A stretch of DNA of 64,000 bases from a virus. The stretch covers positions 73,167 through 137,166 of IMG/VR virus record IMGVR_UViG_3300040959_000769; one strand, written 5' to 3'. The position numbers were made by a program, and so were the translations under genes. Shown piece by piece: positions 16,095 to 31,760 of this stretch. The notes beneath the pieces are model-generated. The model ran no database searches. It worked only from the letters and a program-made list of their open reading frames with translations, and was not told the origin of the DNA. Within the stretch, counting starts at the first letter, position 1; each line of letters opens with the position of its first letter.

Positions 16095-16127
16095 CGGTGT
16101 TGCACCAGTGTTCTGTAGGAGACGAAG

Positions 16128-16379: not shown

Positions 16380-16386
16380 GGTCAAA

Positions 16387-16599: not shown

Positions 16600-16614
16600 C
16601 GCTAGGAGCACAAA

Positions 16615-16827
16615 ATGGCATTGTCAGCAGCTCAAATCGCTCAAGCGAGAAGCGAAGCCCAAGACTTCTTGGAGTACTCAATCTTCGTGCTTTGCACGTT
16701 TCTGGAAGTTGACCCAGAAACAGCAACGTCCGCAATGGAAATCCCCGTTTCCGAAGCAGATCTAAACTATTACAACTACGTCTCGCTGAAGCGACAATTG
16801 TCGGCATTTGAGGCTCTAACGGCATGA
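16615..16827 (+). CDS. Small acidic helical protein, paralog 3
   Basis: MALSAAQ...LEYSIFVLCTFLEVDPETA; AGGAG SD. Confidence 0.75.
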   Translation: MALSAAQIAQARSEAQDFLEYSIFVLCTFLEVDPETATSAMEIPVSEADLNYYNYVSLKRQLSAFEALTA

Positions 16828-17054
16828 AGTTTTCGTCACCTCACCTTCGAGCCGTTCTGGATGGGGATGATCGACATCCAAGCGAAATCGCTACATCAAC
16901 TGGACGCTTCGTGCCTGAGGAAGAAACACCCGAATCGGAAAGCGTCAACAACAACATGGGAGCCGCAATCACCTTCAACCCTTCCGTTGGAGCGCTTGAA
17001 CTTGCCGAAGAAGGTGCAGTCATCATCTGCGAAAAAGTTAGAAAAGACACCTAA
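16824..17054 (+). CDS. Small acidic hypothetical protein
   Basis: 76 aa, ATGA-coupled to the previous gene. Confidence 0.65.
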   Translation: MKFSSPHLRAVLDGDDRHPSEIATSTGRFVPEEETPESESVNNNMGAAITFNPSVGALELAEEGAVIICEKVRKDT

Positions 17055-17389
17055 TGGCCATCAGGACCTCAACTCCAACATCAGGCAAGGTTTATAGCCC
17101 TCAGGCGGAACTTGACTGGACAAGCACACACTTGCTGTCATGCTTCTACATCTTGGGTCTCACAGAAGATGATATGGATACATACACCATTGACGACCTG
17201 GTTGATCGTTGCACTTGGATGTTTGAGCCACACACCCTTGAGGCTTACCTGACTGTCTTAGGTAAAGAAAGATCATACGACCCCGGATTTTCTTTCGGCA
17301 GAAAACAGCGCAGTTGGATGGTTCTCCTAGTCAGAAGGTTCTGGCGTCGTCGCCATATTTCGCAGTACGAGGTGAACAGCGGTGTCTAG
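17054..17389 (+). CDS. Hypothetical protein with basic C-terminus
   Basis: 111 aa, TAATG-coupled to the previous gene. Confidence 0.65.
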   Translation: MAIRTSTPTSGKVYSPQAELDWTSTHLLSCFYILGLTEDDMDTYTIDDLVDRCTWMFEPHTLEAYLTVLGKERSYDPGFSFGRKQRSWMVLLVRRFWRRRHISQYEVNSGV

Positions 17390-18155
17390 CAGCATTTTCC
17401 ATAAAGGCGTCGTTGCTCGAAGCCTTTCCACTAACCAAACTGGAACCACTTGGGAAGACGAGTTGAGCGTTGTGCGCGACTACTCCCGCCTCGCCGATGC
17501 GGCAATTACTGCCGCCAACGCTGACATGCGACAAGCTGCCGTTGGTCGAGACTGGTACTTCTGGAAATATTCCACGTGGCTAGGTGAACAAGACAACACA
17601 TGGCTTGAATACGCTTGGCGCAACTACGTAGCAGTTAAATCTCTATATGGCGTTCTGAAGCCAAGAGACTTGGAAACAACTGAGAAAATTCTCATCTCTG
17701 GATCTTTCCCCATCCAGATGCACACGGCACACATGCAGGCAGGGACAAAAGATTATTACTGGTTGAACTCACTTGAAACCAGAATCATGGAAGACACGCT
17801 GAACGAGAACGGAACCATCCCCAATCAACCAGAGTGCTCCTACAAAATCATTGACTTTGAAGACTTTGAGCAAGGCACAGTAACGGAATTTTTTGATTCA
17901 GCCCGCCTGCACACCCATGACTTCCTGACCCCGAACCTAAATCTGGTTGACAACATGCTTGACTCAATCAGGGTAGGCGGAATCATGATGATTTACGATC
18001 TTGCTGAATTCGGCGCTTTGTACGAAGACGGCATGCGCGCCCACGAAGAGCGAATGCACCGGATCAACCGCCGTATTGCCCAACGTGAAGACTACGAGGT
18101 GTATCACTTGGCACACGACGAGATCGGTACAGTTCTTGCCTACCGCATCGGCTAA
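17382..18155 (+). CDS. Hypothetical protein, possibly class I methyltransferase-like fold
   Basis: C-terminal LVDNMLDSIRVGGIMMIYD resembles the end of O-methyltransferase folds; no clear GxGxG motif I. Confidence 0.35.
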   Translation: MSSSIFHKGVVARSLSTNQTGTTWEDELSVVRDYSRLADAAITAANADMRQAAVGRDWYFWKYSTWLGEQDNTWLEYAWRNYVAVKSLYGVLKPRDLETTEKILISGSFPIQMHTAHMQAGTKDYYWLNSLETRIMEDTLNENGTIPNQPECSYKIIDFEDFEQGTVTEFFDSARLHTHDFLTPNLNLVDNMLDSIRVGGIMMIYDLAEFGALYEDGMRAHEERMHRINRRIAQREDYEVYHLAHDEIGTVLAYRIG

Positions 18156-18164
18156 TATAAATAC

Positions 18165-19163
18165 ATGCCCGCAAGATTCGGACCTCCAACTCGAGACAAG
18201 TACGCCTATTACAGTCTTGACGAAAACGACTGCAAAACTGTCAACGAGATTGAGTACACAAATTACAAAGGTGGAGTAATCCACTTCCACAACGTTTTCA
18301 ACGTTGACCGAGACGTAATTTTGCCATACATTGACGAAATGGCATACGTGCCATCATGTGGTCTTGAAATCATCAAAGACGACGAAGGCAACATGCTCCA
18401 CGGCGAAACTTTTGACGGCAAAATCGTGGACATGAAAGATCTACTCGCACTACCAATGCGGGTCGGCGGTATGGGGATGCCTGAACCAGTCAACCCAAGC
18501 ACGCCACACGACGTCAGAAACTTTTTTGAGGGTGTTGAGGAAAGTTTGTATCACTGCCTAATCAGGTACTGTGATATTTACCCACTTATCGTCAACTCAA
18601 TTTGGTGGCGAATGAGAGGACACTGTCTCAAGTACATGCCAGGAGCGAATCTGGGTCTCCACAACGACAACGACACCAACACCTTCACCATTGATGGGCA
18701 GAGGTACTACAGCGAACGAGAGATCGCTATGTACCAAGTCGTGAACGGTCTGGCTTATTTCAACGATGACTATGAAGGTGGAGAAATGCACTTCCCCTAC
18801 TTAGACATCACGGTAAAACCAAAAACCGGAGACATCATTCTTTTCCCTGCCAACTATGTTGGAACTCATGGAGTGGCGCAAGTTGGAGAAGGAGCACCTC
18901 GATACACCTACCTGACGCAGTTCGGTCATGGCGGAGAGCACAAATACGAAGTACTGGAGCCTCAGGAAAGCGACATGTGGCTAGCTCCGGTGTATGTGCC
19001 TTACCTGTACCAAGATCACGTCAAGTTCTCCCATTCGGGCTACTCGCACCTGGACACGTCAAAAGACTCAGCGTTAGGTTTCCACGCCTCAACTATTGAG
19101 ACGCAGCAACGCTCAAAAGAGGGCGCTCCAGTCGGAACTAAGATTCCGTACGAAGAGGAGTGA
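18165..19163 (+). CDS. 2OG-Fe(II) oxygenase, prolyl-4-hydroxylase-like
   Basis: LKYMPG..LGLHND, YFNDDYEGGEMHFP, THGV, RY. Confidence 0.85.
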   Translation: MPARFGPPTRDKYAYYSLDENDCKTVNEIEYTNYKGGVIHFHNVFNVDRDVILPYIDEMAYVPSCGLEIIKDDEGNMLHGETFDGKIVDMKDLLALPMRVGGMGMPEPVNPSTPHDVRNFFEGVEESLYHCLIRYCDIYPLIVNSIWWRMRGHCLKYMPGANLGLHNDNDTNTFTIDGQRYYSEREIAMYQVVNGLAYFNDDYEGGEMHFPYLDITVKPKTGDIILFPANYVGTHGVAQVGEGAPRYTYLTQFGHGGEHKYEVLEPQESDMWLAPVYVPYLYQDHVKFSHSGYSHLDTSKDSALGFHASTIETQQRSKEGAPVGTKIPYEEE

Positions 19164-19809
19164 AAGGAATAGTTCCTATCAGAGTTCCATGACCAAAGAA
19201 CTCCAGATAGGAAATACGTTCCCCTGACGTTACTGGCACAACTTCGTGAGTGCCTAAGAAACCGGCAGGATAAACAAATGCTGTTCCCGCTTCGGGGGCG
19301 AAATGCTTGTCGATGTATTTGAATCCAAGATCGCCACCGACGCAATCATCTTTCAGAATCAGAGATCCGGTCAGGACGCTGTAGATCGCTTTTTCGCTTT
19401 CCGAACCAGCACCAACTAAGTTGTCGTTGTGATATCCCATGTATCCACCCGGTTTGTAGGTAGCGACATGAGGCACGGCTCTCCACCAAATGTTTTCTTT
19501 TGCGTCAGGGAAGAAATTGAAATATTTGGTGACACATTCACCCATTGATTTTTCAAGAAGTTCTGCAAACTTCAGATCGTCGTCAGTGGTGTTCACTTTA
19601 AGTTGCAGAAGACGACCTGGGGAAGCATTGACCTGCTCCTCTGTGAAGATGTAGCCACCCCTATTCATGTACGTGCCATCATCCTGCAAGGTGTAGTCGC
19701 TTGGTTCTTGTTCGCGACGGCGTTCAAGCCATCCTTCAAAAAACGAAGCATCAATGTCTAGGACATTTCGATACTCAACGATCCCAAAGCCGTGATGGAT
19801 TGCTTCCAT
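19138..19809 (-). CDS. 2OG-Fe(II) oxygenase, P4H-like
   Basis: TYKPGGYMGYHND, GGDLGF, GTHEVVPVTSGERISY. Confidence 0.85.
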   Translation of the reverse strand: MEAIHHGFGIVEYRNVLDIDASFFEGWLERRREQEPSDYTLQDDGTYMNRGGYIFTEEQVNASPGRLLQLKVNTTDDDLKFAELLEKSMGECVTKYFNFFPDAKENIWWRAVPHVATYKPGGYMGYHNDNLVGAGSESEKAIYSVLTGSLILKDDCVGGDLGFKYIDKHFAPEAGTAFVYPAGFLGTHEVVPVTSGERISYLEFFGHGTLIGTIPFTPLRTES

Positions 19810-20390
19810 TACTTCTCGTCAGGGAATTCGGTTCCACGCTCGCGGTCATTGCGGAGACGCTTCACCTCTTTGGCTGAGGTTTCATGAACCTCGGGTGTCC
19901 AGTACCCGTCAGTGAAAAGATCAGCAACCTCCTGAGCCCTATCTCCTGACAGGTACAGGGTGTGCTCATTTGTGTAGCCTTCACGACCGGGATATGGCCA
20001 TCCATAAAGTCCGGCTTCAACATAATCAATGCCTGCTCCGGTGATGATGGATGCAATTTCCTGTTCGGACTCTTCGCCCCAGAGACCGTTGGCGTCAACG
20101 TAAAGTCCGTTGTAGCCACGAGATGCAACATAGTTCGCAATCTCAAGTGGAGCGCCACCAAAAGCAATGCAGAAAATGATGTCGCATTTTGCGAGCATCG
20201 CATCAAGGGTCACGAGATCAGTGAGATCAAACTCTGCTGCACGTTCGTGTGTTGCCTCAGAGCGATCAGCCGATGCCCAGACAACCCTGTGCCCGCTCTT
20301 ACACAAAGCATAGGCAAGGGTGCCGCCCATCTTTCCTGGGTGGGCAATTCCAATTGTTTTATCCGACTGGGGGGAGTATTGAGTATCCAT
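19809..20390 (-). CDS. NAD(P)-binding 6-phosphogluconate/3-hydroxyisobutyrate dehydrogenase-like protein
   Basis: IGIAHPGKMG Rossmann motif, CDIIFC, LYVDAN, YVEAG. Confidence 0.75.
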   Translation of the reverse strand: MDTQYSPQSDKTIGIAHPGKMGGTLAYALCKSGHRVVWASADRSEATHERAAEFDLTDLVTLDAMLAKCDIIFCIAFGGAPLEIANYVASRGYNGLYVDANGLWGEESEQEIASIITGAGIDYVEAGLYGWPYPGREGYTNEHTLYLSGDRAQEVADLFTDGYWTPEVHETSAKEVKRLRNDRERGTEFPDEK

Positions 20391-21189
20391 CTTCCATGTA
20401 CACATTCGTTGAGATTCGGGCAAGGGTAGGGTGTTCTTGTGGGTCAACCACATTTTCGCAAACATCAGGGTTTGGCGTACCTTGACAATACCACCCCAAG
20501 TAAGAGTAGCGCCACCCGCCAGTCACGGGCTGCACTTCATGCGCTGCAACATAATTAGACGGGAAGAAAAGCATGTCGCCTTTCTTTATGTCTTCGTGTT
20601 TGATATCTAGGTATTCGAAGTTATGAGCACCACCAGTGAAGTTCGTTCCGTCAAGCTCATCCTCCGACTTGACGTTGTCGTTCAGGTAAGCCACAACCGA
20701 AACGCTGTTGCGAGTGGCCAACTGATCACGAGGATGAGGCTTGCCGTACTCGTAGTCAGTACTCACATCTGCGTGCATTCCTAAAAACCCGCCAACCGGA
20801 TAAGCAACAATGTGGCTTTTGATCTTCCACCAAATGCACTTACCGGCAATTGGGAACATTTCTAGATACGAGAGAAGACACGCATCTCGGCGCTCCTCAA
20901 TGTAGTCAAGGACATCAATTACTTCAGAGCGGCTGTCCTGATGAACGAAACTCCCACGCCACGGCATCTCATCCAACGAATCTTTCTTAAAGAAATATCC
21001 GCTCCGATTGATGTAGCCGTCCTCACCAGTAATCGGGTCAACACCTGGCGTGTACATGGTCTCGCGCTCTGCCTGCAAAACGTCCTTGCAGTATTCACGC
21101 ATCCAATCCCAGTCAAGGTTGAACACGTTCTCAAAGAGGACGACACCACCACCGAGGTGTGTACCAACAGGATTATCGCTCATATTCAT
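20359..21189 (-). CDS. 2OG-Fe(II) oxygenase, P4H-like
   Basis: VAYPVGGFLGMHAD, VAYLND, FTGG, AHEVQPVTGGWRYSY. Confidence 0.85.
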   Translation of the reverse strand: MNMSDNPVGTHLGGGVVLFENVFNLDWDWMREYCKDVLQAERETMYTPGVDPITGEDGYINRSGYFFKKDSLDEMPWRGSFVHQDSRSEVIDVLDYIEERRDACLLSYLEMFPIAGKCIWWKIKSHIVAYPVGGFLGMHADVSTDYEYGKPHPRDQLATRNSVSVVAYLNDNVKSEDELDGTNFTGGAHNFEYLDIKHEDIKKGDMLFFPSNYVAAHEVQPVTGGWRYSYLGWYCQGTPNPDVCENVVDPQEHPTLARISTNVYMEDGYSILPPVG

Positions 21190-22741
21190 GTTCCCCCAGT
21201 TCAAGCATGTATCCAACATAGTCGTGGATGCGCTCAATGATCCGCTTCCGGTCATCGTTATCTCGAAGATGATTGAAACAACCGTAGATGGTGTCAATAG
21301 CAAACTGAACCAAGAAATCCTCGGGAGGATCGTGACCCCTGAAGCCTTCGTATGTCATGAAAGACAAATTATGGAAGTCCCATGGGCGAAACTGCAAAGG
21401 CTGGTGTGGGAACCAATCGGGATAATGCCATGCATGTCCGGCGTGCCGCATGTCTGGATGCCAACGCAGATACGCACGAACCTTCTCAATGACTGTCAAC
21501 GTGTCGTCGTCATTTGGTGCTTGCTTCATGAAGTCTTGATGCGGAGGGAACCCGCCATGCATGTCCCCGTTGCGAGAAAACAGGAACGACTGACCCTCAA
21601 GATCAAACCCTTCCATGTGGGCTTTGCTGTAACGCATCAAGTTAGCGAAAATTCGATCCTCCGGATCCATCTTCACTGGGTAGACATGGAAGTCCTCGCC
21701 AAACGGTTCATTGTCAAAAAACTCTTTCAACTTGACGCCACGCTCAGGAATGTTCCCATCCTTGGTGAAGATGAAAAGCGTTACCTTCTGAAATAGACAC
21801 TCAAGTCCCTCAAGGGCATAGATTCCCTTTGTGAAGACAAGAGGAATGTGGTCAGGGTTCGGACCTTTTGACTTGTCCTTATCAACGCCAGGGTATGACT
21901 GTACGTCACCAAAGTTCTCGTTACCATCAACCTTGTACTCGGGATCGTAGAAAGGCTTCTCCTTCCCTACCTCTACCCGCTGGAAGACCCTATCCTCTCG
22001 CTCCCAGCCATTGTAAAAACCGTGCATTACGGCACGATTGTCCCAGATGACTACGTCGCCTTCTTGCCACGTCCACTTGTAACGATTAGCTTCTGTTCGG
22101 CAATACTCCTCAACCCAGTCGTAGAGTTCTTCAAACCATGGGGTGCTCCCCCCGTCAAGTTGGGTGCCTGGTCCGGTCCAGTAAAGAAGAGTTTCTCCAG
22201 TATCCGGATGTGTTCGCAAGGCGGGATGGCTGACAACGTCACGTCCTGCGGCTCCAGTCTCCGCCACGAAACGAGCCGTCGGCAGGTGTTCCTTAATGTG
22301 CTCAGGACACTCTTCGTACAGATTTACAAGACTCACCCAGAATGTGTGACCGAAATCTTTATCAACACGGTAGGTCGTCATATGGATGGAAGTAACCGCA
22401 GGAGGAGCTTCCAAGAACGGGTTATCTACATGCCAGTTCTCTTTCAGAAACTGTTCAGGATCCGTTTTATCTTCAACATTCTTGACCGTTGGGTGATTTA
22501 CGCCCGCAAGAAGACCACCGTTGAAATCTTCATCAACTTCGCCTGTGTAGATAGCGTTGACCAGTTTCATGTGCTCCTGGTCGGTTGGGTTCATGCCGAT
22601 GAAACCAACCATCTTGTTCTTGTTGAAAATCAACTTGAAATACTCTGGGTCATCAAGAACTTGCCGGGCAGTGATGCCTCTCATCTTGAAACCGAGGTTG
22701 CCTAGTTTCAGTCCTAAGGCGATTCCGCCAAAACCTTTCAT
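21173..22741 (-). CDS. TauD/TfdA-family dioxygenase with unknown C-terminal domain
   Basis: WHVD, GHTFWVSLVNLYE, HPALRTHPDTGETLLY, WQEGDVVIWDNRAVMHG..R. Confidence 0.85.
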   Translation of the reverse strand: MKGFGGIALGLKLGNLGFKMRGITARQVLDDPEYFKLIFNKNKMVGFIGMNPTDQEHMKLVNAIYTGEVDEDFNGGLLAGVNHPTVKNVEDKTDPEQFLKENWHVDNPFLEAPPAVTSIHMTTYRVDKDFGHTFWVSLVNLYEECPEHIKEHLPTARFVAETGAAGRDVVSHPALRTHPDTGETLLYWTGPGTQLDGGSTPWFEELYDWVEEYCRTEANRYKWTWQEGDVVIWDNRAVMHGFYNGWEREDRVFQRVEVGKEKPFYDPEYKVDGNENFGDVQSYPGVDKDKSKGPNPDHIPLVFTKGIYALEGLECLFQKVTLFIFTKDGNIPERGVKLKEFFDNEPFGEDFHVYPVKMDPEDRIFANLMRYSKAHMEGFDLEGQSFLFSRNGDMHGGFPPHQDFMKQAPNDDDTLTVIEKVRAYLRWHPDMRHAGHAWHYPDWFPHQPLQFRPWDFHNLSFMTYEGFRGHDPPEDFLVQFAIDTIYGCFNHLRDNDDRKRIIERIHDYVGYMLELGEHEYER

Positions 22742-23463
22742 GAAGGCTCCTTCAGTTGTGGGTGACCCTCAAATGCGGGGCCAATACGATTACCGTTTTC
22801 GTCTAGCCCAGTTCGGATGCCACCCATCCAAGTCCAAGGCTGTTCTTGCAACTTCTTCATCTTTGCATCACCGTACGACTGTCGAGCAGCAGACAAATCT
22901 GGCTTGTCCCAGTAGTTCTCAACTGTGAACTCAACGCTTGGCATCAGAGAGTTGTCGTAAAACTGGAAAAACATAAAAGGTGAACCAGCAGGAAAAATAA
23001 CTGGCTGACCAATTTTTGTGATCTTCCAGTTCATGTTGAACTCGTCTGGCCACCAGTCAGATGGAATGTGCGCCGTTAAAGGAACAGCCCCATCAACAAA
23101 ATAGTTAGGTGACCCGCTTATCCACGTGGACACTCCTGGAGGCGTTGAGAACGTCCACCCAACAGTGAACGACATAATCCCAACAATGCTGGGCATAACA
23201 ATGTCACGTTCGTAAGTCTGACCATTTGTCTCAAACGTCATCTTCTCGCCGGACAGGACACGAGGAACAGTCAGCCCCCCGTCCCATTGAATAACAACAT
23301 CTTGTTGGAGAAGAACCTCCCAACCGTTGACGTTTGCTTCAGTCAGGGGAAGACACTTGTATGCATGCTTCTTGTAGGTGTCATCCATCCAGTCGCGTCG
23401 AACTGACGCTTGCTTTATCTCAGGTGGATTTTGATGTGTTCTAGTGAGAGTTACATCCATCAC
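22738..23463 (-). CDS. DUF6065-like protein
   Basis: AYKCLPLTEANVNGWEV, TPPG..TWISGSPN, SDWWP..F.MNWKIT, FPAGSPF resemble DUF6065 as recalled; needs HMM confirmation. Confidence 0.65.
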   Translation of the reverse strand: MMDVTLTRTHQNPPEIKQASVRRDWMDDTYKKHAYKCLPLTEANVNGWEVLLQQDVVIQWDGGLTVPRVLSGEKMTFETNGQTYERDIVMPSIVGIMSFTVGWTFSTPPGVSTWISGSPNYFVDGAVPLTAHIPSDWWPDEFNMNWKITKIGQPVIFPAGSPFMFFQFYDNSLMPSVEFTVENYWDKPDLSAARQSYGDAKMKKLQEQPWTWMGGIRTGLDENGNRIGPAFEGHPQLKEPS

Positions 23464-24161
23464 TGAATAGCCATCGTCTGACCGCTGGCAACAGGAATTC
23501 CCATTGTCGTATCTTGCTGCGCCGAGTACCCACCTCCGCCGTGGCTCTGGTGGTTACGGTCGTTGTAGTCATACATGGTGACGGCAGAATACTTGATTCC
23601 ACTCTTTACAGGCTGAGAAGCATGAGCGTAAATGAAATCACTTGGATGGACAATGACATCACCTGCTTCGGGGACAAACTGAAGGTTTTTGTACGGCATG
23701 ATGTACTCGCCGCCTTCGTAGTCGTCATTCAAATACCCAATAGCAGACACGGCGCAAGAATAAGAAAACCCAGAGTCAGGATGAACTGAGAAATGCTGCC
23801 CCTCGCCATAGCGAACGAAGTTGGTGGCTTCTTCATAGTCAAGTTGCAAGTTGTACATTGACGAGTAGTGCTGCACGCACTGGCGTACACCAGAAATAAC
23901 TTCCTCGTACACCCGTCCAAGATCTGCGAACTCTTCAGGAACAGGGATGTCTGCTTGACGCAACTTGAAGTCAACGCAATCTCTGTAATCCTTCATCACC
24001 TCGTAGTCTCCAACTGTCGCCTGCTTCCATGAGAAGTATTCGTGGGTGCTCTCAGCGAGACCGGTTTCAAGTCGAGCGATGAAGTTTGAGTCAGGTGCCC
24101 AAACGTCTTTGTACAGCATGATGCCGTCGGTCGGGTTGCCCAAGTATCCGCCAATTCTCAT
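23460..24161 (-). CDS. 2OG-Fe(II) oxygenase, P4H-like
   Basis: FVRYGEGQHFSVHPD, YLNDDYEGGE, YAHASQPVKSGIKYS (Lys at the 2OG-binding position). Confidence 0.88.
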   Translation of the reverse strand: MRIGGYLGNPTDGIMLYKDVWAPDSNFIARLETGLAESTHEYFSWKQATVGDYEVMKDYRDCVDFKLRQADIPVPEEFADLGRVYEEVISGVRQCVQHYSSMYNLQLDYEEATNFVRYGEGQHFSVHPDSGFSYSCAVSAIGYLNDDYEGGEYIMPYKNLQFVPEAGDVIVHPSDFIYAHASQPVKSGIKYSAVTMYDYNDRNHQSHGGGGYSAQQDTTMGIPVASGQTMAIQ

Positions 24162-24164
24162 TAT

Positions 24165-24797
24165 TTACCTCAGTTCAGTGATTGTGTAGAAAGAAGGGGT
24201 AGTCCATCTTTCTCCACGGGTAATTTGTTTTACACCATGAAGATAGTGGACATCACCTGGATGTGCTACCGCTAAGCCTGGTTTTATCGGAATTTCAATA
24301 TCGAACTCAGGGTAATAAAACTCGCCACCATCAAAATCTTCGTTCCAGTAAATGATTGAGTTCAGGTCATACAGAGGGAAAGGATTTGGCTTTCCGTCAT
24401 TCAACTGTTTATCCGCGTGTGGTTGCTGCTCATTGCCTGGAAGCCATCTGATAAGTACTGGCGGGCGCTTGTATAGAGCAACGTTGAATTTGTCCTCCAA
24501 CACTTTTTGCATCTTGTCAATATATTTATCAATCAGATTAAATATATCTGGGGAGATGCGTTTGAGGATTTCGCCACTACACATTCGATCCCACCAATAG
24601 GAGGCGTCGTAAATACACGTGCCATCTTCATCAAATTCGTCACCCATAGGATTTTCCCACTCTTCAATAGTCGGGAAAAACTTTTGCAGGGTTTTCAGAT
24701 CATCTAGATCTACGAAGTTTTCAATGACTGTGATGTTCTCTGCTGTTGTTCCGAAGTGACCTGGTTCAACTAGCGATTTTTCTTCAACTTGTTCCAT
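24165..24797 (-). CDS. 2OG-Fe(II) oxygenase, P4H-like
   Basis: IRWLPGNEQQPHAD, YWNEDFDGGEFYY, YLHGVKQITRGERWT. Confidence 0.88.
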   Translation of the reverse strand: MEQVEEKSLVEPGHFGTTAENITVIENFVDLDDLKTLQKFFPTIEEWENPMGDEFDEDGTCIYDASYWWDRMCSGEILKRISPDIFNLIDKYIDKMQKVLEDKFNVALYKRPPVLIRWLPGNEQQPHADKQLNDGKPNPFPLYDLNSIIYWNEDFDGGEFYYPEFDIEIPIKPGLAVAHPGDVHYLHGVKQITRGERWTTPSFYTITELR

Positions 24798-24799
24798 CA

Positions 24800-24863
24800 G
24801 GTAAGCGAACTTACCATAAACATAGATCCCTCGTCCACCACGTTGGCAGTCAAGGGATCTATG
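24800..24863 (-). promoter_or_regulatory. Two intergenic hairpins between the repeat gene and the first oxygenase
   Basis: Plus strand CATAGATCCCT (24821-24831) pairs with AGGGATCTATG (24853-24863). On the minus strand GGTAAG-TTCG-CTTACC (24800-24815) lies 2 nt before ATG 24797. Confidence 0.55.
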
Positions 24864-24881
24864 TCACTCCTCTTGTTTTTC

Positions 24882-25469
24882 CTACTTAAAGCTCGGCGGG
24901 AAGAAAGGCGGGAAGTGTGGTGGGAAGTGAGGCGGGAACCACGGTGGGAAGTGTGGTGGGAAGAACGGTGGGAAATGTGGTGGGAAGTGTGGAGGGAAGA
25001 ACGGCGGGAAATGTGGCGGGAAGTGAGGTGGGAAGTGTGGAGGGAAGTGAGGTGGGAAAAACGGTGGGAAGTGCGGAGGGAAGTGAGGAGGGAAAAATGG
25101 TGGAAAATGCGGAGGGAAATGGGGAGGGAAAAACGGCGGGAAGTGGGGTGGAAAGTGCGGAGGGAAGAATGGCGGAAAGTGTGGCGGAAAGTGAGGCGGG
25201 AAAAACGGTCCGATTGCGCGAACAGAAATAGTTGTTCCCAAAGGAATTTCAGTGAAAGTGGTTGTGAGGTTGTATTCCTGACCGTCAACAATGATGTCAT
25301 GCGCTTTACCGACATCACCTAAAACACTCGTGTTTAGCGTATCGACAGCTTCAGAAACGGCGGAAAACCCGAGATTCTGCAACGACACCACGAAATTGCC
25401 AGCGTCTGTGAGATCGGTATACGTGAACGTACCTAAAGGTAGTCCGCTTCCGCCTTTGTTACCTGCCAT
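24882..25469 (-). CDS. Pro-Pro-(His/Phe)-Phe tandem-repeat protein (86-aa N-terminal domain plus repeat tail)
   Basis: 195 aa; starts 6 nt after the fibre stop; synonymous Pro/His/Phe codons vary between units, favouring this frame. Confidence 0.85.
   Translation of the reverse strand: MAGNKGGSGLPLGTFTYTDLTDAGNFVVSLQNLGFSAVSEAVDTLNTSVLGDVGKAHDIIVDGQEYNLTTTFTEIPLGTTISVRAIGPFFPPHFPPHFPPFFPPHFPPHFPPFFPPHFPPHFPPFFPPHFPPHFPPFFPPHFPPHFPPHFPPHFPPFFPPHFPPHFPPFFPPHFPPWFPPHFPPHFPPFFPPSFK
24885..25211 (-). repeat. Coding 12-nt tandem repeat: GPFF + 26 x PPxF (17 His, 7 Phe, 1 Trp, 1 Ser) + K
   Basis: Counted from the translation; higher-order PPHF-PPHF-PPFF (36-nt) period. Confidence 0.95.
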
Positions 25470-25475
25470 CAGTCA

Positions 25476-28400
25476 TCACGCCTTTGCATCACCAGTTACG
25501 AGCCATGTGTCAGTGCCTCGCTTATGCAACGTTATCATAGACCATTGTTCGCGGGTTTTAAGACCAACCGCAGCGTTAATTGTTACCCCTGAGAGTGCGT
25601 TAACTGTTGCGGTGCCTGTGCCTGTCTGCACAATATTGATAACTGTTCCGATAGGGAATGCGACACTGGCGTTTGTTGGAACATTAATGGTTCCCGTCGA
25701 TGAAAATTCCAAGGTGTGACCTTCGTGGGCGGCATTTAGAGTCATGTTTGAACTGTAAGTGTCATAATCGTGGAGAACACTTGTACCAGCAGGCAATGTA
25801 ACCGTGCCGGTAAATGTCGGCGAAGCCAACGGAGCTTTCAACGCCAACGAGTTCGTGACCGTCGTCGAGAAGTTAGCGTCATCACCCAGAGCCGCAGCCA
25901 ACTCATTCAACGTATCCAAAGTTGCCGGAGCAGAATCAACCAAAGCGGACAATTCCTGCTGAACAAACGCAGTCGTCGCCAACTGTGTGGTGTTCGTTGT
26001 TGTAGCCGCCGTAGGTGCGGTAGGTGTGCCAGTCAAAGCAGGGCTAGCCAACGGGTCATAGTTAACCCAGTTCGCTCCGTCATACCTGATTGCTTCACCG
26101 CTGGAAAGAGAAGTAAATGAAACGTCGCCAATATCTTCAAGAGCGGAAATAATCGGAACGTTCGCGTTCACCCAGTTAGTTCCGTTGTACTTCAAGAACT
26201 CGCCATCAGCCTCAGATGTCAGCGTTACATTGGTGATGTTTGCCAGAGTGTGCGCCGTGTTGACGTAGTTCGTTCCGTTGTAGAGAAGAATGTCGCCGGA
26301 CGTTTCACTTGATGTTGAAACACCACCAGAGTTCTGGATTGTAAGCGGATAGGGAACCCAATTAGTTCCATCAAAGTAGGCAACGTCACCCTCTGAAGGA
26401 GCGAGAGTTGTCATATCAACATCGCTCAATCCACCAATACTGTGATTAGACACGTCCGAAACCGTGCCTGTCACATCACCGGTTACATCACCGGTCACAT
26501 TGCCAGTCAAAGATGCCGTGATGGTTCCCGCAGAGAAGTTGCCCGTTCCATCACGAGCAACAATCGTCCCTGCGGTATTCAGGTTCGTGGCATTAGAAGT
26601 GACCGTGACCGCAGCGCCCTCACCTGTTCCAACGACAGTCAGACCAGTTCCAGAAACACCGACAGATGCGACATAGTCGCCCGTGGTATGCGTTCCCAGA
26701 TCAACACTGTCGTTAGCCATTGCCGTCGTCAGAGTGATGTTCCCGGAACCATCAAACGAAACACCAGCAGCAGTCACATCGCCACTCAAAGCGATGGTGC
26801 GGGCATTTTGCAGAGTCGTAGCCGTTGTTGCATTTCCTGACAAAGCAGCAGTGACCGTCACGAACGTTGGTGAATCCGTCGTGGCAAGACCCTGAATAAG
26901 ATCAGAGGTTTCAACGCTGGTGACACGACCGTACGAATCAGTCGTAACACTTGACACGAATGTTGAGGTAGCGGAACCGGATGTGGAACCAACTGAAACA
27001 GTAGCCAAGTCAATATCGTCGGCATTGACGACAATTCGAGAAACATCGGCTGTTCCAACATTCAGTGTGTTGCCTGTCTGGGCAAGACCCGTACCGGCAG
27101 TGAATGCTTGGGTTCCAGTGAACTGGGTGAACGAAAGTGCATCCGACCCAATTGAATGCGGCGACGATGTTGACGTAACAACGAAGCCCTGTCGGACATT
27201 CGTGCTACCGGCAAGAACGAAAACGGCTTCACCAGGGTTAACGTCGGCGTCGCTACCGTCAAAATCATCTGCCCTTGTAAGAATCCAGTACGCAGTGCCT
27301 GATGCCCCTTGATTCGTTACGACATAGATGCCGTTATGAGAACTTGTTGCTTGATCTTTAACAAGAACACGGTCCCCAGTGTTTGCGTTAGCTCCGTCAA
27401 TGACCAGACGGACCTGGCTTGTTGCGGTAAGCGTCGCCCCCACACCACTTGATCCGTTGTCGTAAGATGGCGTGTCGGGAAGGGTTGTTGCAGTAGCCAA
27501 ACGAACCGCTTCATGCCAGTCAATGCCAGCAGCAATGTTGTCCACGTAAGATTTAGTTACCGCATGACCTGCTTGAGTTGGTGCCGTGCCAAGGCTGACC
27601 GTGTTGAACGTAACGTCATCTGACGTTCCCACCGCCTGACCAATAGCAACGGATGGGGTATTGCCTTCGCCAGTTCCGCCAGTAACTGTGACACCTGTAC
27701 CCCCAGAAACACTGACGGTGTAATTACCTGTCGTGTCGGTTCCAAGAGCCACACTGTCGGCTTGAACTGTTGCGCTGATGTTGATATCGCCAGTTCCGTC
27801 AAATGAGGCAGAACCAGCAACGTCGCCAGAAATCTGAATGGTGCGAGCAGTCGCAAGAGCAGTAGCGGTGTCAGCGTTCCCAGTGACATTGCCGGTTAGG
27901 TTTCCTGTGACGTTACCGGTAAGAGCAGCCGTGACGGTGTTGAAAGTGACGTCATCTGTGGTGCCAACAGCCTGCCCGATTGCGATAGTGGCAGTTTGAC
28001 CTTCTCCCGTAGGATTGGTGATTGTTACACCGGTGCTTTCAGCCAACTCGGCAACATAGTTACCTGTCGTGTCAGTTCCAAGTGCGACCGAATCTGCTTG
28101 GATAGTCGTTGAAATTGAGACATCACCAGAACCGTTGAAACTGACAGAACCAGCCACGTCGCCAGTAAGCGAAATTGTCCGAGGAGTCTGCAATGTTGAA
28201 GCAGTAGTAGCATTACCACTTAAAGCTCCGTAGAAGGTGCTTGCTTGAACATCTGCTAATTCAAACGATGCGTCGCTAGTGTTAACGTTCCCTGAGAGTT
28301 CTGGGTCGTAAGCATTGAAGAACTTCCATCGAGCGTCATCGGTGTCGCGGAAAAGACCAGTGTGGTTGTAGCCGCTGTCGTTGTAGTTGCCAGCGAAACC

Positions 28401-31400
28401 AATATCAACGTTTACCGGTGAAGCGGTACCCGACCATGTGTCCCCACTTGTGTGACCAGTCGCGGCAATAAATGTGATTGAAATGCCGTTATCAAGCGTT
28501 ACACCGTCAGTGTCAATATCAACGCCAGTGGCTTCTGTTGTTGAGAAGTTGTCCTTTGACCATTCAAAGGTGTCCACCCCGCCGGTTCCAGCACCAACCC
28601 CGTCAATCCTGACGTAATAGGTTGTGCTACCAGTTCCAGAGTAGTGACCGGTCAACGTTCCGTCATTAAGACCCGTACCCGAGAATGACGTTGTGGCGAT
28701 GGTGTCGCCGCCATTCAGATAGATCCACGAGTCATCAACACTCAGGTTGTTGACAGAAACTTCTGACTGTGTTCCAAGGATTGTCAGGTTGCCAGCAACA
28801 GTAAGATCTCCGCTGATACGCGCATCGTTACGAACACGAATATCATCAAATACCTCTGAAACAACTTTGACCCGGAAACAACCTGGATCCTGAGCGAGAA
28901 GCACCTCAGCAATCCCAATTGCATAGTTCGGGTAGGTCGGAACAGCCGTGGTTAAAGCACCTGGTGTTGTTGCTGATAGGTGAAGCCTGTCCCCGACGGA
29001 GAAACCGCTGAGGTCAACACCGAGCAAAACACCAGATTCAATAATGAATCCGTAAGCGCCATCAGCGATAGTGCTTTTGGCGACACCACCAACGTTGACT
29101 TTATCTCCATCGCTAGCATCAGCCAGAGCGATGGTTGGGATAGCCGCCGTTTCACCAGTGAAATAGACAGCCGAACCTGCCGGAATACTTACACCTGAAT
29201 CGTTATGAACGTACAACGCCTGCTCTTGACCGAGAGCAATATCAACACCAGTCGTGCTCGTAAATGCACGTAGCGCTTTGTTAGCCGAGTCGTACCAGAT
29301 TCGACCTTCTTCATATGTTGGCGTTGAATCAGGAGTGTAGGTTGAAGCCGCAACGTCGTAATACGACGCATAAACCCGAACGGCTTCAATATCGTTCGGC
29401 GTGTCGTTTGCGCGTCCTGCACCGAGGATAAGAATTTCGCCAGTAGATGCATCCTTACGGATGACTCGACCGATGGCTTGAACTTTTGACCCGATAGCCG
29501 TCGGACGGGTACGTGTCAGTCCGCCACCTTCATCAACATACAGAACATCGTTGACGTCGTACGACGACGTATTCATGTGTTTGATAACGCCGAGGATGAC
29601 GGCGTGACCTTCTGCGTTTGCTGTCAGTTCAGCGGTCGTGATTCCCAGTGCGGGCATTGTTGAAGATGTTGCCGCATCCGAAGGCGACACTTCTGTTTTG
29701 CCACTCGCACCAACCGAACCTGTCGCATAAACAGGCGTACCTTTAGCAATGGTGGAACCCGATGTGTTCTTAACATGAACATATACAGGTCCAGCAAGTT
29801 CACCGTGAATATGGCCAGCGTCAAGAAGACCGTTTACCGTCACATCTTCAAAAGTTACGCTTGCCGTACTGTCAAGAGTGATGGTTGGAGTTGCGCCTTC
29901 TCCAGAGTTATTGGTGAGCGTGACCCCGTTGCCTGCAACCAGGTTCTGAACATAGTCGCCGGTCGTATCAGTACCAAGAGTGACAGAATCAGGCTGAATT
30001 GTCGCCGCAATATTTATATTTGCTGTGCCATCAAATGATGCAGAACCAACCACATCACCAGAAACTTGGATCGTTCGAGCCGTTTCCAACGCTGTTGCCG
30101 TATCAGCATTACCAACCAAATCGCCTGTAACAGTGTTGAAAGTTACGTCATCAGTTGTTCCAACCGACTGGCCGATTTCAATAGTGGGAGTTGCTTTTTC
30201 TCCTGAATTATTGCTGAGCGTGATACCAGTGCCAGCAACGAGATTCTGCACAAACGACCCAACAGTGTGATCACCAAGAGTGATCGCAGCATTGATCCAC
30301 TCCGCTCCGTTGTAGCGAAGAAAGTCGTTAGATGCTGGAGTTGCGACCGTGGTATCTGTCAGACCAGCGACAGTTGGTGCAATGTTGCGCCACTCTCCCG
30401 CCGTTGAATCCCACGCAATAATGTCATCGTTAGAAACAGAAACAATGTTTACGCCAGGAATGTCATCAATTTCTGTCGGCAGCGGGTAGTACGTGACCCC
30501 GTCGTTGGTGAACTCCCAAACATCTTGCGTTTCATCCCAACGAACAGAAACGTTGTTAGAGGTTCCACGTGTGACCTCAATGCCAGCATTCAGCGATGGG
30601 GCGCCAGTAACACCGCTGTTAAGGTTGATGATGTTGTCTTCAACGTACAGGTTTGCGGTGTTCAGAGTTGTTGTTGTTCCGTTGACCGTGAGGTTACCGC
30701 CGACAGTTAGATCAGCAGTTGTCGCAACAGAGTTGAAAGTCACGTTTGACGTTGTTGAAACGTCTTGACCAATAGCGATAGAAGGCGTGTTTCCTTCTCC
30801 GGAACCACCAGTAACAGTTACACCTGTTCCGCCGCTAACACCTTCGGTGTAATCCCCAGTTGTGTCCGTCCCAAGAGCAACACTGTCAGGTTGCACCGTG
30901 GTCGTGATCGTGACATCGGCAGATCCATCAAAAGAAACCGAACCAGCAACGTCTCCGTCAACAGTGAAAACTCGAGGTGTCTGCAAGGCGGAAGCCGTTC
31001 CAGCGTTGCCAGACACATCACCCGTAACATTGCCTGTCAGAGAAGCAGTGACAGAATTGAAAGTGACATCATCGCCAGTCCCAACCGACTGACCAATAGC
31101 AATCGTCGGGGTTGAACCCTCACCAGAATTGTCTGCCAGGTTTACACCGGTACCAGCAACCAAATTCTGGACATAGTCACCAGTTGTGTCAGCACCCAAA
31201 GCCACCGAGTCAGGCTGAACTGTCGCCGCGATATTGACATCCGTGGACCCGTCAAAACTTACAGATCCCGCCACATCTCCAGAGAGTTGAATGATTCGAG
31301 CGGTTTCAAGGATGCTTGCCGAATCAGCATTACCGACAATGTCTGCCGTCACAGTGTTGAACGTGACATCTGACGTGGTTTCAACTTCCTGACCGATTGA

Positions 31401-31760
31401 AACTGACGCTGCTGCGCCTTCACCGGTTCCACCCAAAATGGTGACTCCGGTACCTGCGGTAACGCTCTCAACGTAGTCACCAACCGAGTCGGTGCCAAGA
31501 TTTACAGCGTCATTGATCCACGCAACACCATTCCAACGCAAGAAATCGCCATCAGCAGCAGATGTGATGGTTACATCAGAAATTTCGTCAAGTGTTGCCG
31601 TTGTGTAGTAATAGTCAAGCGAAGTCCATGCAGTAAGACCATCACCAAGTTTGAGTTTCCCAGTGTCCGTCTCGTACCCAAGTTCGCCTTGAGCAAGAGT
31701 TGGATCTTCACTTGTCCAATTCGCCGCTGTATCTCGGCGTAGCTGAATTCTTGTTGCCAT
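25476..31760 (-). CDS. Giant modular tail fibre protein (2094 aa)
   Basis: N-terminal RIQLRRDTAANW...GELGYETDT.KLK.GDG..AW (Mtd_N-like), six ARTI..SGDV.GS.SFDG...DSV.LG.DTTG.Y modules, seven L.D+.DV...G..L.YNG..W.N units, typical fibre C-terminal domain. Confidence 0.85.
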   Translation of the reverse strand: MATRIQLRRDTAANWTSEDPTLAQGELGYETDTGKLKLGDGLTAWTSLDYYYTTATLDEISDVTITSAADGDFLRWNGVAWINDAVNLGTDSVGDYVESVTAGTGVTILGGTGEGAAASVSIGQEVETTSDVTFNTVTADIVGNADSASILETARIIQLSGDVAGSVSFDGSTDVNIAATVQPDSVALGADTTGDYVQNLVAGTGVNLADNSGEGSTPTIAIGQSVGTGDDVTFNSVTASLTGNVTGDVSGNAGTASALQTPRVFTVDGDVAGSVSFDGSADVTITTTVQPDSVALGTDTTGDYTEGVSGGTGVTVTGGSGEGNTPSIAIGQDVSTTSNVTFNSVATTADLTVGGNLTVNGTTTTLNTANLYVEDNIINLNSGVTGAPSLNAGIEVTRGTSNNVSVRWDETQDVWEFTNDGVTYYPLPTEIDDIPGVNIVSVSNDDIIAWDSTAGEWRNIAPTVAGLTDTTVATPASNDFLRYNGAEWINAAITLGDHTVGSFVQNLVAGTGITLSNNSGEKATPTIEIGQSVGTTDDVTFNTVTGDLVGNADTATALETARTIQVSGDVVGSASFDGTANINIAATIQPDSVTLGTDTTGDYVQNLVAGNGVTLTNNSGEGATPTITLDSTASVTFEDVTVNGLLDAGHIHGELAGPVYVHVKNTSGSTIAKGTPVYATGSVGASGKTEVSPSDAATSSTMPALGITTAELTANAEGHAVILGVIKHMNTSSYDVNDVLYVDEGGGLTRTRPTAIGSKVQAIGRVIRKDASTGEILILGAGRANDTPNDIEAVRVYASYYDVAASTYTPDSTPTYEEGRIWYDSANKALRAFTSTTGVDIALGQEQALYVHNDSGVSIPAGSAVYFTGETAAIPTIALADASDGDKVNVGGVAKSTIADGAYGFIIESGVLLGVDLSGFSVGDRLHLSATTPGALTTAVPTYPNYAIGIAEVLLAQDPGCFRVKVVSEVFDDIRVRNDARISGDLTVAGNLTILGTQSEVSVNNLSVDDSWIYLNGGDTIATTSFSGTGLNDGTLTGHYSGTGSTTYYVRIDGVGAGTGGVDTFEWSKDNFSTTEATGVDIDTDGVTLDNGISITFIAATGHTSGDTWSGTASPVNVDIGFAGNYNDSGYNHTGLFRDTDDARWKFFNAYDPELSGNVNTSDASFELADVQASTFYGALSGNATTASTLQTPRTISLTGDVAGSVSFNGSGDVSISTTIQADSVALGTDTTGNYVAELAESTGVTITNPTGEGQTATIAIGQAVGTTDDVTFNTVTAALTGNVTGNLTGNVTGNADTATALATARTIQISGDVAGSASFDGTGDINISATVQADSVALGTDTTGNYTVSVSGGTGVTVTGGTGEGNTPSVAIGQAVGTSDDVTFNTVSLGTAPTQAGHAVTKSYVDNIAAGIDWHEAVRLATATTLPDTPSYDNGSSGVGATLTATSQVRLVIDGANANTGDRVLVKDQATSSHNGIYVVTNQGASGTAYWILTRADDFDGSDADVNPGEAVFVLAGSTNVRQGFVVTSTSSPHSIGSDALSFTQFTGTQAFTAGTGLAQTGNTLNVGTADVSRIVVNADDIDLATVSVGSTSGSATSTFVSSVTTDSYGRVTSVETSDLIQGLATTDSPTFVTVTAALSGNATTATTLQNARTIALSGDVTAAGVSFDGSGNITLTTAMANDSVDLGTHTTGDYVASVGVSGTGLTVVGTGEGAAVTVTSNATNLNTAGTIVARDGTGNFSAGTITASLTGNVTGDVTGDVTGTVSDVSNHSIGGLSDVDMTTLAPSEGDVAYFDGTNWVPYPLTIQNSGGVSTSSETSGDILLYNGTNYVNTAHTLANITNVTLTSEADGEFLKYNGTNWVNANVPIISALEDIGDVSFTSLSSGEAIRYDGANWVNYDPLASPALTGTPTAPTAATTTNTTQLATTAFVQQELSALVDSAPATLDTLNELAAALGDDANFSTTVTNSLALKAPLASPTFTGTVTLPAGTSVLHDYDTYSSNMTLNAAHEGHTLEFSSTGTINVPTNASVAFPIGTVINIVQTGTGTATVNALSGVTINAAVGLKTREQWSMITLHKRGTDTWLVTGDAKA

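What the first reader, a model, noticed from the sequence alone, without database searches (positions are those of the whole stretch)
24882..25469. 26 x Pro-Pro-(His/Phe)-Phe repeat protein with a 12-residue super-period
Seen: an 86-aa N-terminal domain, then GPFF and 26 PPxF units (17 H, 7 F, 1 W, 1 S) mostly ordered PPHF-PPHF-PPFF. Pro codons differ between units (CCG/CCA/CCT/CCC), which points to selection on the peptide rather than recent slippage. It starts 6 nt after the fibre stop, so it is probably virion-linked. Inference: a polyproline-II rod displaying 17 regularly spaced His could chelate Fe/Cu/Ni, in line with the proposed iron-carrying phage tails. PPFF also recurs in fungal and plant cyclic peptides (antamanide, cyclolinopeptide A), but no protease or cyclase gene is visible here. 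The N-domain looks faintly PASTA-like (weak).
Basis: partly seen in the sequence, partly recalled or inferred. Interest (0 to 1): 0.85.

Follow-up and report, generated by a model that had tools for sequence, protein, structure and literature searches.

The report
Aromatic-proline rod protein behind phage fibre
An uncultured phage of actinobacteria encodes, right after its giant tail-fibre gene, a small cell-wall-binding-type (PASTA-fold) head carrying a rod of 26 Pro-Pro-x-Phe units; it belongs to a large, undescribed, phage-only family that nearly always follows one type of fibre gene and usually precedes a bank of prolyl-hydroxylase-like enzymes, so it is a testable candidate substrate for them.

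Summary
ORF 24882-25469 (-) encodes 86 aa, then GPFF, then 26 PPxF units (17 H, 7 F, 1 W, 1 S), then K, and starts 6 nt after the fibre stop. The peptide is under strong purifying selection.

New here:
- The head has a PASTA fold (Z up to 8.0).
- 115 of 120 distinct family members directly follow a gene ending in the same fibre C-terminal domain.
- 91 of 124 are followed within 1.5 kb by a P4H/P3H-like 2OG oxygenase. Starting instead from the oxygenase, 46 of 52 loci hold an array upstream.
- The arrays are essentially phage-only.
- Two WhiB genes point to an actinobacterial host.

Best reading: a fibre-partnered accessory protein with a swappable binding head on a stiff polyproline-II-like stalk (about 0.6). 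The stalk is the best candidate substrate of the adjacent hydroxylases (about 0.35, inference only).

The metal-chelation idea is weak, because His is not conserved across the family. The cyclic-peptide idea has no support.

The scan had already noted this family on other DNA (e1-3484603, e1-5951424).

The parts
24882..25469 (-). PPxF-repeat protein gene (195 aa plus stop)
   Evidence: orthologues in the same frame; purifying selection
25212..25469 (-). N-terminal head, aa 1-86, PASTA fold
   Evidence: AF2 pLDDT about 85-90 for residues 11-86. VIA-align top 15 hits are all PASTA domains of PknB, PrkC, StkP and PBP2x, Z 8.0-5.3, rmsd 2.0-2.8 A over 57-71 residues. No Pfam hit by sequence.
24885..25211 (-). 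Tail, aa 87-195: GPFF, 26 PPxF units, terminal K
   Evidence: AF2 shows no secondary structure, pLDDT 47-57
25470..25475 (-). 6-nt spacer between fibre stop and ATG (second in-frame TGA, then CTG)
25476..31760 (-). 2094-aa tail fibre. Its last 100-190 residues are the domain that precedes nearly all family members.
   Evidence: PHROG tail-fibre families. C-terminal region matches Bxb1 tail collar fibre gp4 (PDB 9D93), E 1.6e-12, and the C-termini of Gordonia phage minor tail proteins. 115 of 120 pairing.
24819..24865 (-). 21-bp RNA hairpin in the 84-nt spacer between the repeat gene and the first oxygenase
   Evidence: MFE -36.9 kcal/mol for the 101-nt stretch, z -5.5, 0 of 200 shuffles as stable. 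A like hairpin sits right after the stop in L003.
24165..24797 (-). 2OG-Fe(II) oxygenase, P3H/P4H-like (210 aa)
   Evidence: PF13640 below cut-off. Family profile A3 hits prolyl 3-hydroxylase 1 at 1.7e-8 and B. anthracis P4H at 5.6e-6. Invariant H127, D129, H187, R197.
23460..24161 (-). 2OG-Fe(II) oxygenase, P4H-like (233 aa)
   Evidence: PF13640 at 37.8 bits, cut-off 27. Profile A2 hits B. anthracis P4H at 1.6e-4, LH3 at 1e-3, PBCV-1 P4H at 0.02. Invariant H127, D129, H180, K190.
22738..23463 (-). DUF6065 protein, dUTPase-like fold
   Evidence: PF19541 at 2e-43. AF2 pLDDT 82.8. Top 22 structural hits are dUTPase or dCTP deaminase, Z 10.3-5.7.
21173..22741 (-). TauD-family oxygenase with C-terminal extension (522 aa)
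   Evidence: PF02668 at 4.9e-30
20359..21303 (-). 2OG-Fe(II) oxygenase (PF13640), 314-aa ORF
19809..20465 (-). NAD-binding Rossmann protein
19138..19809 (-). 2OG-Fe(II) oxygenase (PF13640)
18165..19163 (+). 2OG-Fe(II) oxygenase (PF13640), opposite strand

Best explanation
The gene is real and selected, and is the last gene of the tail-fibre block of a roughly 137-kb myovirus of actinobacteria. Its product most likely works together with the fibre as an accessory appendage. It has a small PASTA-fold head of the kind that binds peptidoglycan precursors in Gram-positive kinases and PBPs. The head sits on a stiff, hydrophobic polyproline-II-like stalk of 26 PPxF units, about 32 nm if fully extended (104 residues at 3.1 A per residue).

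Shown:
- the anatomy;
- selection on the peptide;
- the fold of the head;
- the near-universal pairing of family members with one fibre C-terminal domain;
- swapping of the head (PASTA-like, PASTA, FN3, He_PIG) while the array is kept;
- the frequent neighbourhood of P4H/P3H-like oxygenases.

Inferred:
- The protein is in the virion and binds the fibre through its conserved part (about 0.6).
- The stalk is PPII, and the H-H-F order places all x = Phe residues on one face (12 residues = 4 turns).
- The prolines of the stalk, and perhaps its aromatic residues, are hydroxylated by the adjacent enzymes. This would stiffen and solubilise the stalk, as in plant and algal Hyp-rich proteins and the PBCV-1 P4H substrates (about 0.35).
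For: - Anatomy and selection.
- Family: 185 homologues whose arrays follow PASTA, FN3 or He_PIG heads. Orthologues keep the frame with 9-34 units.
- Head: PASTA fold.
- Fibre link: 115 of 120 distinct array ORFs start a median of 17 nt after a gene that ends in the window fibre's C-terminal domain, at 29-81% identity. That domain is related to a solved virion fibre of mycobacteriophage Bxb1 and to Gordonia phage minor tail proteins, whose next gene is also annotated as a minor tail protein.
- Arrays also occur inside or at the end of larger fibre-region proteins.
- Oxygenase link: 91 of 124 arrays have a P4H-like gene within 1.5 kb downstream on the same strand. The reverse search from the oxygenase profile gives 46 of 52. 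The enzymes carry HxD...H plus K or R at +10 and match P4H, P3H and LH structures.
- The arrays are phage-only: 3 contigs in 185,579 prokaryote genomes, all carrying the same phage module.
- Host: two WhiB genes; sheath closest to Gordonia and Arthrobacter myophages.
- PBCV-1 P4H hydroxylates Pro-rich viral repeats (PMC3634087).
Against: - No proteomic or structural evidence places the protein in virions.
- All loci come from one broad group of related phages, so conserved gene order may reflect ancestry rather than function.
- Second copies of array genes in one phage follow a fibre gene but not an oxygenase, so the fibre is the tighter partner.
- A very stable hairpin separates the gene from the first oxygenase, and relatives have spacers of about 300 nt. 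The enzymes may therefore be a separate transcription unit.
- In cyanophage S-RIM2 a related oxygenase sits after fibre genes with no Pro array nearby.
- The bank also holds TauD, PhyH, GPx-like and NAD-binding genes, which looks like a metabolic island.
- A 5-unit period is common in other arrays, and this does not fit a single-face PPII register.
- The head does not reach Pfam PASTA by sequence.
Confidence: 0.55

Rival explanations
1. Fibre assembly chaperone. The protein helps the trimeric fibre fold or attach and is not kept in the virion, like Tfa or T4 gp38-type helpers encoded right after fibre genes.
For: Position directly after the fibre gene with a 6-nt spacer. Pairing with one fibre C-terminal domain in 115 of 120 cases.
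Against: No match to known Tfa families. The heads are extracellular binding-type domains (PASTA, FN3, He_PIG), which suit a displayed protein better than a cytoplasmic chaperone. Array length varies freely from 6 to 38 units. Some relatives carry Cys-rich or Hint caps.
Confidence: 0.15
2. Unmodified structural rod. The neighbouring oxygenases act on other targets (fibre residues, small molecules, nucleic acids, 2OG balance), and their adjacency is only a conserved module boundary.
For: Hairpin and long spacers between the genes. Second array copies lie away from oxygenases. S-RIM2 has the enzyme after fibre genes without an array. The literature proposes DNA repair or 2OG modulation for the cyanophage enzymes (PMC3037559).
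Against: The enzymes nearest the array fall in the peptidyl prolyl/lysyl hydroxylase group. The array offers 52 prolines in Pro-Pro pairs, the classic substrate type. Co-occurrence holds in both directions, 91 of 124 and 46 of 52, down to 40% enzyme identity.
Confidence: 0.35
3. Metal-carrying rod. Regularly spaced His chelate Fe, Cu or Ni on the tail fibre.
For: 17 His in this array. His-rich arrays are common in the closest subfamily.
Against: 34 of 166 arrays lack His, and Phe is the commonest x. His and Phe swap between orthologues. On a PPII helix neighbouring His are about 12 A apart and rotated by 120 degrees, so a single chain cannot form a chelate (established PPII geometry; inference).
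Confidence: 0.07
4. Precursor of a bioactive Pro-rich peptide (cyclic PPFF-type peptide or a PrAMP-like ribosome binder).
For: PPFF occurs in antamanide-type peptides, and PPxF-like units occur in PR-39 and Bac5 (papers listed; own knowledge).
Against: No S9 prolyl oligopeptidase in the genome. There are no Arg and no cleavage motifs between units. The tail is always fused to folded heads and paired with fibres.
Confidence: 0.03

Closest known systems
PBCV-1 (Chlorella virus) prolyl 4-hydroxylase and its Pro-rich repeat proteins, e.g. (Pro-Ala-Pro-Lys)n
   Same: A virus encodes both P4H-type 2OG oxygenases and proteins with long Pro-rich tandem repeats expected to be PPII (PMC3634087). The ox233 profile weakly matches the PBCV-1 P4H structure 5C5T (E 0.02).
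   Different: That is a eukaryotic virus. Its repeats are charged and non-aromatic, and hydroxylation was shown in vitro. Here the repeats are aromatic (PP[HFY]F), sit on fibre-linked proteins of a bacteriophage, and no modification has been shown.
Plant and algal hydroxyproline-rich glycoproteins (extensins) with algal P4H
   Same: Contiguous Pro runs form PPII rods, aromatic residues are interspersed, and hydroxylation by monomeric P4Hs stiffens the rod (established knowledge).
   Different: No Ser-Pro4 motif, no signal peptide, and no confident glycosyltransferase in the phage genome.
T-even gp38 adhesin (phage S16) at the long tail-fibre tip
   Same: A small protein encoded right after the distal fibre gene, which attaches to the fibre tip and is built of PPII-type helices (10.1101/2023.11.25.568672).
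   Different: gp38 helices are Gly-rich, short and packed into a bundle with receptor-binding loops. Here there is one uninterrupted Pro/aromatic array without Gly, and the binding-type domain is a separate head.
PASTA domains of PknB, PrkC, StkP and PBP2x
   Same: Same fold for residues 11-88 (Z 8.0-5.3). Sister subfamilies hit Pfam PF03793. The host phylum (Actinobacteria) uses PASTA sensors.
   Different: No sequence-level Pfam match for this head. It is a single copy, has no kinase or PBP partner domain, and its ligand is unknown.
2OG-Fe(II) oxygenase expansions of T4-like cyanophages
   Same: The closest cultured-phage relatives of ox233 and ox210 (27-32% identity). Their substrates are unknown (PMC3037559). 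In S-RIM2 one lies after fibre genes.
   Different: No aromatic-proline array near the enzyme in the two cyanophage loci inspected.

Membership tests
PASTA domain (PF03793) | Sequence match to the Pfam profile | tested here: not met
   0 Pfam families at E <= 0.1. Sister subfamilies of the array family do carry PF03793.
PASTA domain (PF03793) | About 65-70-residue alpha/beta fold: one helix packed on a small sheet | tested here: met
   The top 15 of 48,161 chains are all PASTA, Z 8.0-5.3, rmsd 2.0-2.8 A, 57-71 residues aligned. The next unrelated hit is Z 3.8.
PASTA domain (PF03793) | Binding of muropeptide, lipid II or beta-lactam | not testable with these tools
   Needs a binding assay.
Peptidyl prolyl 4-hydroxylase (P4Hc / PF13640) for the 23460-24161 product | HxD...H iron triad plus basic 2OG-binding residue 10 positions after the distal His; profile match | tested here: met
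   H127, D129, H180 and K190 are invariant in 21 sequences. PF13640 at 37.8 bits against a cut-off of 27. Best solved relatives are B. anthracis P4H, LH3 and PBCV-1 P4H.
Peptidyl prolyl 4-hydroxylase (P4Hc / PF13640) for the 23460-24161 product | Hydroxylation of peptidyl proline | not testable with these tools
   Needs an enzyme assay or mass spectrometry.
Viral/plant-type P4H substrate (Pro-rich PPII repeat protein) | Tandem Pro-rich repeats encoded by the same genome as the P4H | tested here: met
   52 Pro in 26 Pro-Pro pairs. At least 9 PF13640 matches in the genome, two of them directly downstream.
Viral/plant-type P4H substrate (Pro-rich PPII repeat protein) | Hydroxyproline present in the mature protein | not testable with these tools
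   Needs mass spectrometry.
Collagen-like triple helix | Gly at every third residue | tested here: not met
   No Gly in the 104-residue array.
gp38-type polyglycine-II adhesin | Gly-rich motifs forming a PPII bundle with variable loops | tested here: not met
   No Gly and no loops in the array. No PHROG hit.
Tail fibre assembly protein (Tfa) | Profile match to known Tfa families | tested here: not met
   No Pfam, PHROG or NCBIfam family for the whole protein or the head.
Proline-rich antimicrobial peptides (Bac5 / PR-39 type) | Cationic, Arg-rich PRP-type motifs | tested here: not met
   No Arg in the tail; the only Lys is the last residue.
RiPP / MSDIN-type cyclic peptide precursor | Short core peptides with a dedicated prolyl oligopeptidase or macrocyclase | tested here: not met
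   No PF00326 match in the 137-kb genome. The record is 92% complete, so absence is not absolute.

The most novel reading that the evidence does not exclude
The PP[HFY]F arrays are the protein substrates of the unexplained banks of 2OG-Fe(II) oxygenases in aquatic phages. Several paralogous hydroxylases (P4H-like, P3H-like, perhaps TauD/PhyH-like on aromatic residues) would convert a greasy Pro/Phe/His rod on the tail fibre into a hydroxylated, stiff or adhesive stalk. This would be the first enzymatically hydroxylated structural protein of a bacteriophage, and a prokaryotic-virus counterpart of extensins or mussel foot proteins.
Probability: 0.3. Interest if true: 0.85.

Novelty: new variant of a known kind. 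Interest (0 to 1): 0.68.

Why it matters
Marine and freshwater phages carry many 2OG-Fe(II) oxygenase genes whose substrates have been guessed at but never identified (PMC3037559). This family offers a concrete, cheap test: co-express one small protein with its neighbouring enzymes and look for +16 Da steps.

The family is also a large, phage-only class of fibre-linked proteins with an unusual uninterrupted aromatic-polyproline rod and interchangeable binding heads. It bears on how phages of Gram-positive aquatic actinobacteria reach or hold the cell wall, and it could serve as a natural rigid-spacer scaffold.

Tried and rejected
- Searches of cultured phages (INPHARED) with the protein and with 10 kb of DNA gave nothing. 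The protein search is uninformative for the repeat because BLAST masks low complexity.
- The N-domain alone against 1.8 billion representatives gave only 5 hits. Of these, P0121 and P0122 are repeat-rich proteins with no clean domain match.
- ESM Atlas: no usable hit.
- Foldseek PDB on the full model: no hit at E <= 0.001. PASTA ranked first, but weakly.
- The DUF6065 profile against PDB sequences gave nothing. I had expected a cupin or JmjC oxygenase, but the model shows a dUTPase-like barrel instead.
- Glycosyltransferase family 2: no match over the cut-off.
- The simple terminator scan found no classical terminator after the gene. Folding did find a U-poor hairpin.
- Literature searches for PPHF, PPFF, FFPP and FPPF, for PASTA with phage tails, and for polyproline II with tail fibres found no description of this family.
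- A strict single-face PPII reading for the whole family was rejected, because a 5-unit period is also common.

Full report
**Observation.**
The minus-strand ORF 24882-25469 encodes 195 residues: 86 residues, then GPFF, then 26 uninterrupted PPxF units, then Lys. The x residues are 17 His, 7 Phe, 1 Trp and 1 Ser, in the order HHF HHF HHF HHF HHHHF HHF HW HHF S. The 2094-aa fibre ORF upstream (25476-31760) ends in TGA. A second in-frame TGA and CTG form the 6-nt spacer before the ATG. TRF reports 12-nt and 36-nt periods.

**Selection on the peptide.**
- 23 of 26 DNA units differ.
- All variation lies at third codon positions and in the x codon.
- Against orthologues, the first 40 tail codons carry 21 synonymous and 0 non-synonymous differences with L003 and with L007. 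The few replacements elsewhere are mostly His/Phe/Trp swaps at x.
- The x residue is periodic at 3 units (identity 0.74; 15 of 5000 shuffles reach it), while synonymous sites show no such memory.

The super-period is therefore maintained at the protein level.

**The phage.**
The window is the right-hand 64 kb of a 137-kb IMG/VR virus record estimated to be 92% complete. It is a contractile-tailed phage with a sheath and a tape measure. The sheath is closest to Gordonia and Arthrobacter myophages, at 37% identity. The genome carries two WhiB genes. An actinobacterial host is therefore likely.

**The head.**
An AF2 model built from ten orthologues gives residues 11-86 a confident fold (pLDDT about 85-90). 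The tail has no secondary structure and pLDDT about 50. An exhaustive structural comparison puts 15 PASTA domains (PknB, PrkC, StkP, PBP2x, PonA2) on top, at Z 8.0-5.3 and rmsd 2.0-2.8 A over 57-71 residues. The first unrelated chain is at Z 3.8. Pfam does not see the domain by sequence, but sister subfamilies of the same array family carry PF03793. The head is a divergent PASTA-fold domain.

**The family.**
A search of 5.8 billion proteins found 185 relatives. All share PP[H/F/Y]F arrays but have different heads: this PASTA-like domain, canonical PASTA, two FN3 domains, or He_PIG. Some carry C-terminal additions, either Cys-rich tails or a Hint domain. IMG/VR scans gave 161 loci. Over 166 arrays with at least six strict units:
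- array length ranges from 6 to 38 units;
- x is Phe 56%, His 27%, Tyr 14%;
- 34 arrays have no His;
- x identity peaks at lag 3 (0.63) and lag 5 (0.56).

A DNA pattern for PPHF-PPFF-PPxF-PP occurs in only three contigs among 185,579 prokaryote genomes. All three are MAG contigs carrying the same phage module. The arrays are in practice phage-specific.

**Two neighbourhood rules.**
1. *Fibre rule.* Of 120 distinct array ORFs with upstream DNA, 115 begin a median of 17 nt after a gene whose end is homologous to the last 100-190 residues of the window's fibre (29-81% identity; the match always runs to the fibre's last residues). This also holds for second copies within one phage. That C-terminal region matches the tail collar fibre gp4 of mycobacteriophage Bxb1 (PDB 9D93, E 1.6e-12) and the C-termini of Gordonia phage minor tail proteins (49-51%). 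In Gordonia phage Jabberwocky the next gene is a 199-aa annotated minor tail protein without an array.
2. *Oxygenase rule.* 91 of 124 array ORFs are followed within 1.5 kb, on the same strand, by a PF13640-type oxygenase (77 of the ox233 type, 14 of the ox210 type). This is usually followed by DUF6065 and further oxygenases. Most exceptions are second copies. In the reverse direction, loci fetched with an ox233 profile alone hold an array ORF upstream on the same strand in 46 of 52 cases. The pattern persists where the enzymes are only about 40% identical and DUF6065 about 25% identical to the window's copies.

**The enzymes.**
- The ox233 family keeps H127, D129, H180 and K190. The ox210 family keeps H127, D129, H187 and R197. 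This is the iron triad plus a basic residue ten positions after the distal His, as in collagen-type P4H and in P3H/LH (own knowledge of these families).
- Profile searches of solved structures give B. anthracis P4H (1.6e-4), LH3 and PBCV-1 P4H for ox233. For ox210 they give prolyl 3-hydroxylase 1 (1.7e-8) and B. anthracis P4H (5.6e-6).
- The genome has at least nine PF13640 matches, plus two TauD, two PhyH, a GPx-like gene and a Rossmann protein nearby.
- DUF6065 is not an oxygenase. Its model (pLDDT 82.8) has a dUTPase-like barrel, Z about 10.
- The closest cultured-phage relatives of the enzymes are the cyanophage 2OG oxygenases, whose substrates are unknown (PMC3037559).

**Cautions.**
- The 84-nt spacer after the array gene forms a 21-bp hairpin (-36.9 kcal/mol, z -5.5). 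L003 has one in the same place, and other relatives have spacers of about 300 nt. The oxygenase bank may therefore be a separate transcription unit that merely abuts the fibre operon.
- All loci belong to one broad group of related phages, so the counts are not independent events.
- In cyanophage S-RIM2 a related oxygenase also lies just after fibre genes, with no Pro-rich array.
- The tighter and more general partner of the array protein is the fibre, not the enzymes.

**Mechanism.**
I commit to a fibre-partnered accessory protein. The array and the fibre C-terminal domain stay constant while the head is exchanged. This fits a conserved docking or stalk part carrying a variable binding head. 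For a Gram-positive host, a PASTA head suggests contact with peptidoglycan or its precursors.

Pro-Pro pairs exclude helix and sheet, so an extended PPII rod of about 32 nm is the natural conformation. With three residues per turn, each 4-residue unit turns the pattern by 120 degrees. The H-H-F order then puts every x = Phe on one face, giving one purely Pro/Phe stripe and two stripes with His. Such a stripe could pack against a partner chain or the trimeric fibre. This step is inference, and the 5-unit periods elsewhere show it is not general.

Hydroxylation by the adjacent P4H/P3H-like enzymes is plausible by analogy with PBCV-1 P4H and its Pro-rich viral repeats (PMC3634087) and with plant Hyp-rich rods. 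It rests only on gene neighbourhood and enzyme family. I put it at about 0.35.

- Virion linkage and PPII are reasonable.
- The PASTA hint is confirmed at fold level.
- Metal chelation by His is weak, since His is dispensable in the family and not positionally conserved.
- The cyclic-peptide link has no support (no S9 peptidase).

**Novelty.**
No paper describing these arrays was found. Earlier notes of this scan on other genomes reached a similar reading (e1-3484603, e1-5951424). I tested their main claims independently here.

Noticed in passing
window 22738-23463 (-): The DUF6065 protein, conserved inside every oxygenase bank, is predicted to have a dUTPase/dCTP-deaminase-like beta-barrel (Z about 10) rather than an oxygenase fold. 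Its role is unknown.
   Followed up: partly
window 24819-24865 (-): A 21-bp RNA hairpin (z -5.5) lies between the repeat gene and the first oxygenase, followed by a small hairpin over the region just before the oxygenase start codon. It could be a U-poor terminator, a 3' stabiliser or a translational control element.
   Followed up: partly
window 12318-24797, both strands: Island of about ten oxygenase-type genes (six PF13640-like, two TauD, two PhyH) plus a GPx-like and an NAD-binding gene. It resembles the cyanophage oxygenase expansions but sits in an actinophage-like genome.
   Followed up: partly
window 25470-25478 (-): The fibre gene ends with two in-frame TGA codons, then CTG ATG. The repeat gene is in the same frame as the fibre, so read-through fusion would need two stops to be bypassed.
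   Followed up: no
G000:C1:5089-5295 (+) and 43902-44093 (-), outside the window: Two WhiB-family genes in the phage genome, a hallmark of actinobacterial phages.
   Followed up: partly
window 51555-53129 (-): 524-aa ADP-ribosylglycohydrolase-like protein inside the structural gene block. Its relatives are in Streptomyces phages and jumbo phages at about 30% identity.
   Followed up: no
L029:1813-4614, L154:3935-5584, L036:1182-2723 and the P0100/P0103 type: In related phages the array is capped by a Hint (intein-like) domain that begins with Cys right after the array. Others end in Cys-rich tails. Arrays also occur at the end of roughly 800-aa Cys-rich proteins.
   Followed up: partly
L254 (Verrucomicrobiales MAG), L255 and L256 (Gammaproteobacteria MAG): The only array hits in prokaryote genomes are MAG contigs carrying the whole phage module (fibre, PASTA-array protein, ox210, ox233, DUF6065, TauD). 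They are probably phage contigs binned into MAGs, so they say nothing about the host.
   Followed up: partly
L267 (Synechococcus phage S-RIM2, HQ317291.1 22077-34598): An ox233-like 2OG oxygenase sits directly after two fibre genes and small fibre-like ORFs. This suggests a wider link between phage fibre regions and these enzymes, independent of Pro arrays.
   Followed up: partly
window 20359-21303 and 21173-22741 (-): The listed 314-aa oxygenase ORF overlaps the TauD gene by 131 nt. Its true start is probably further downstream than the first TTG.
   Followed up: no
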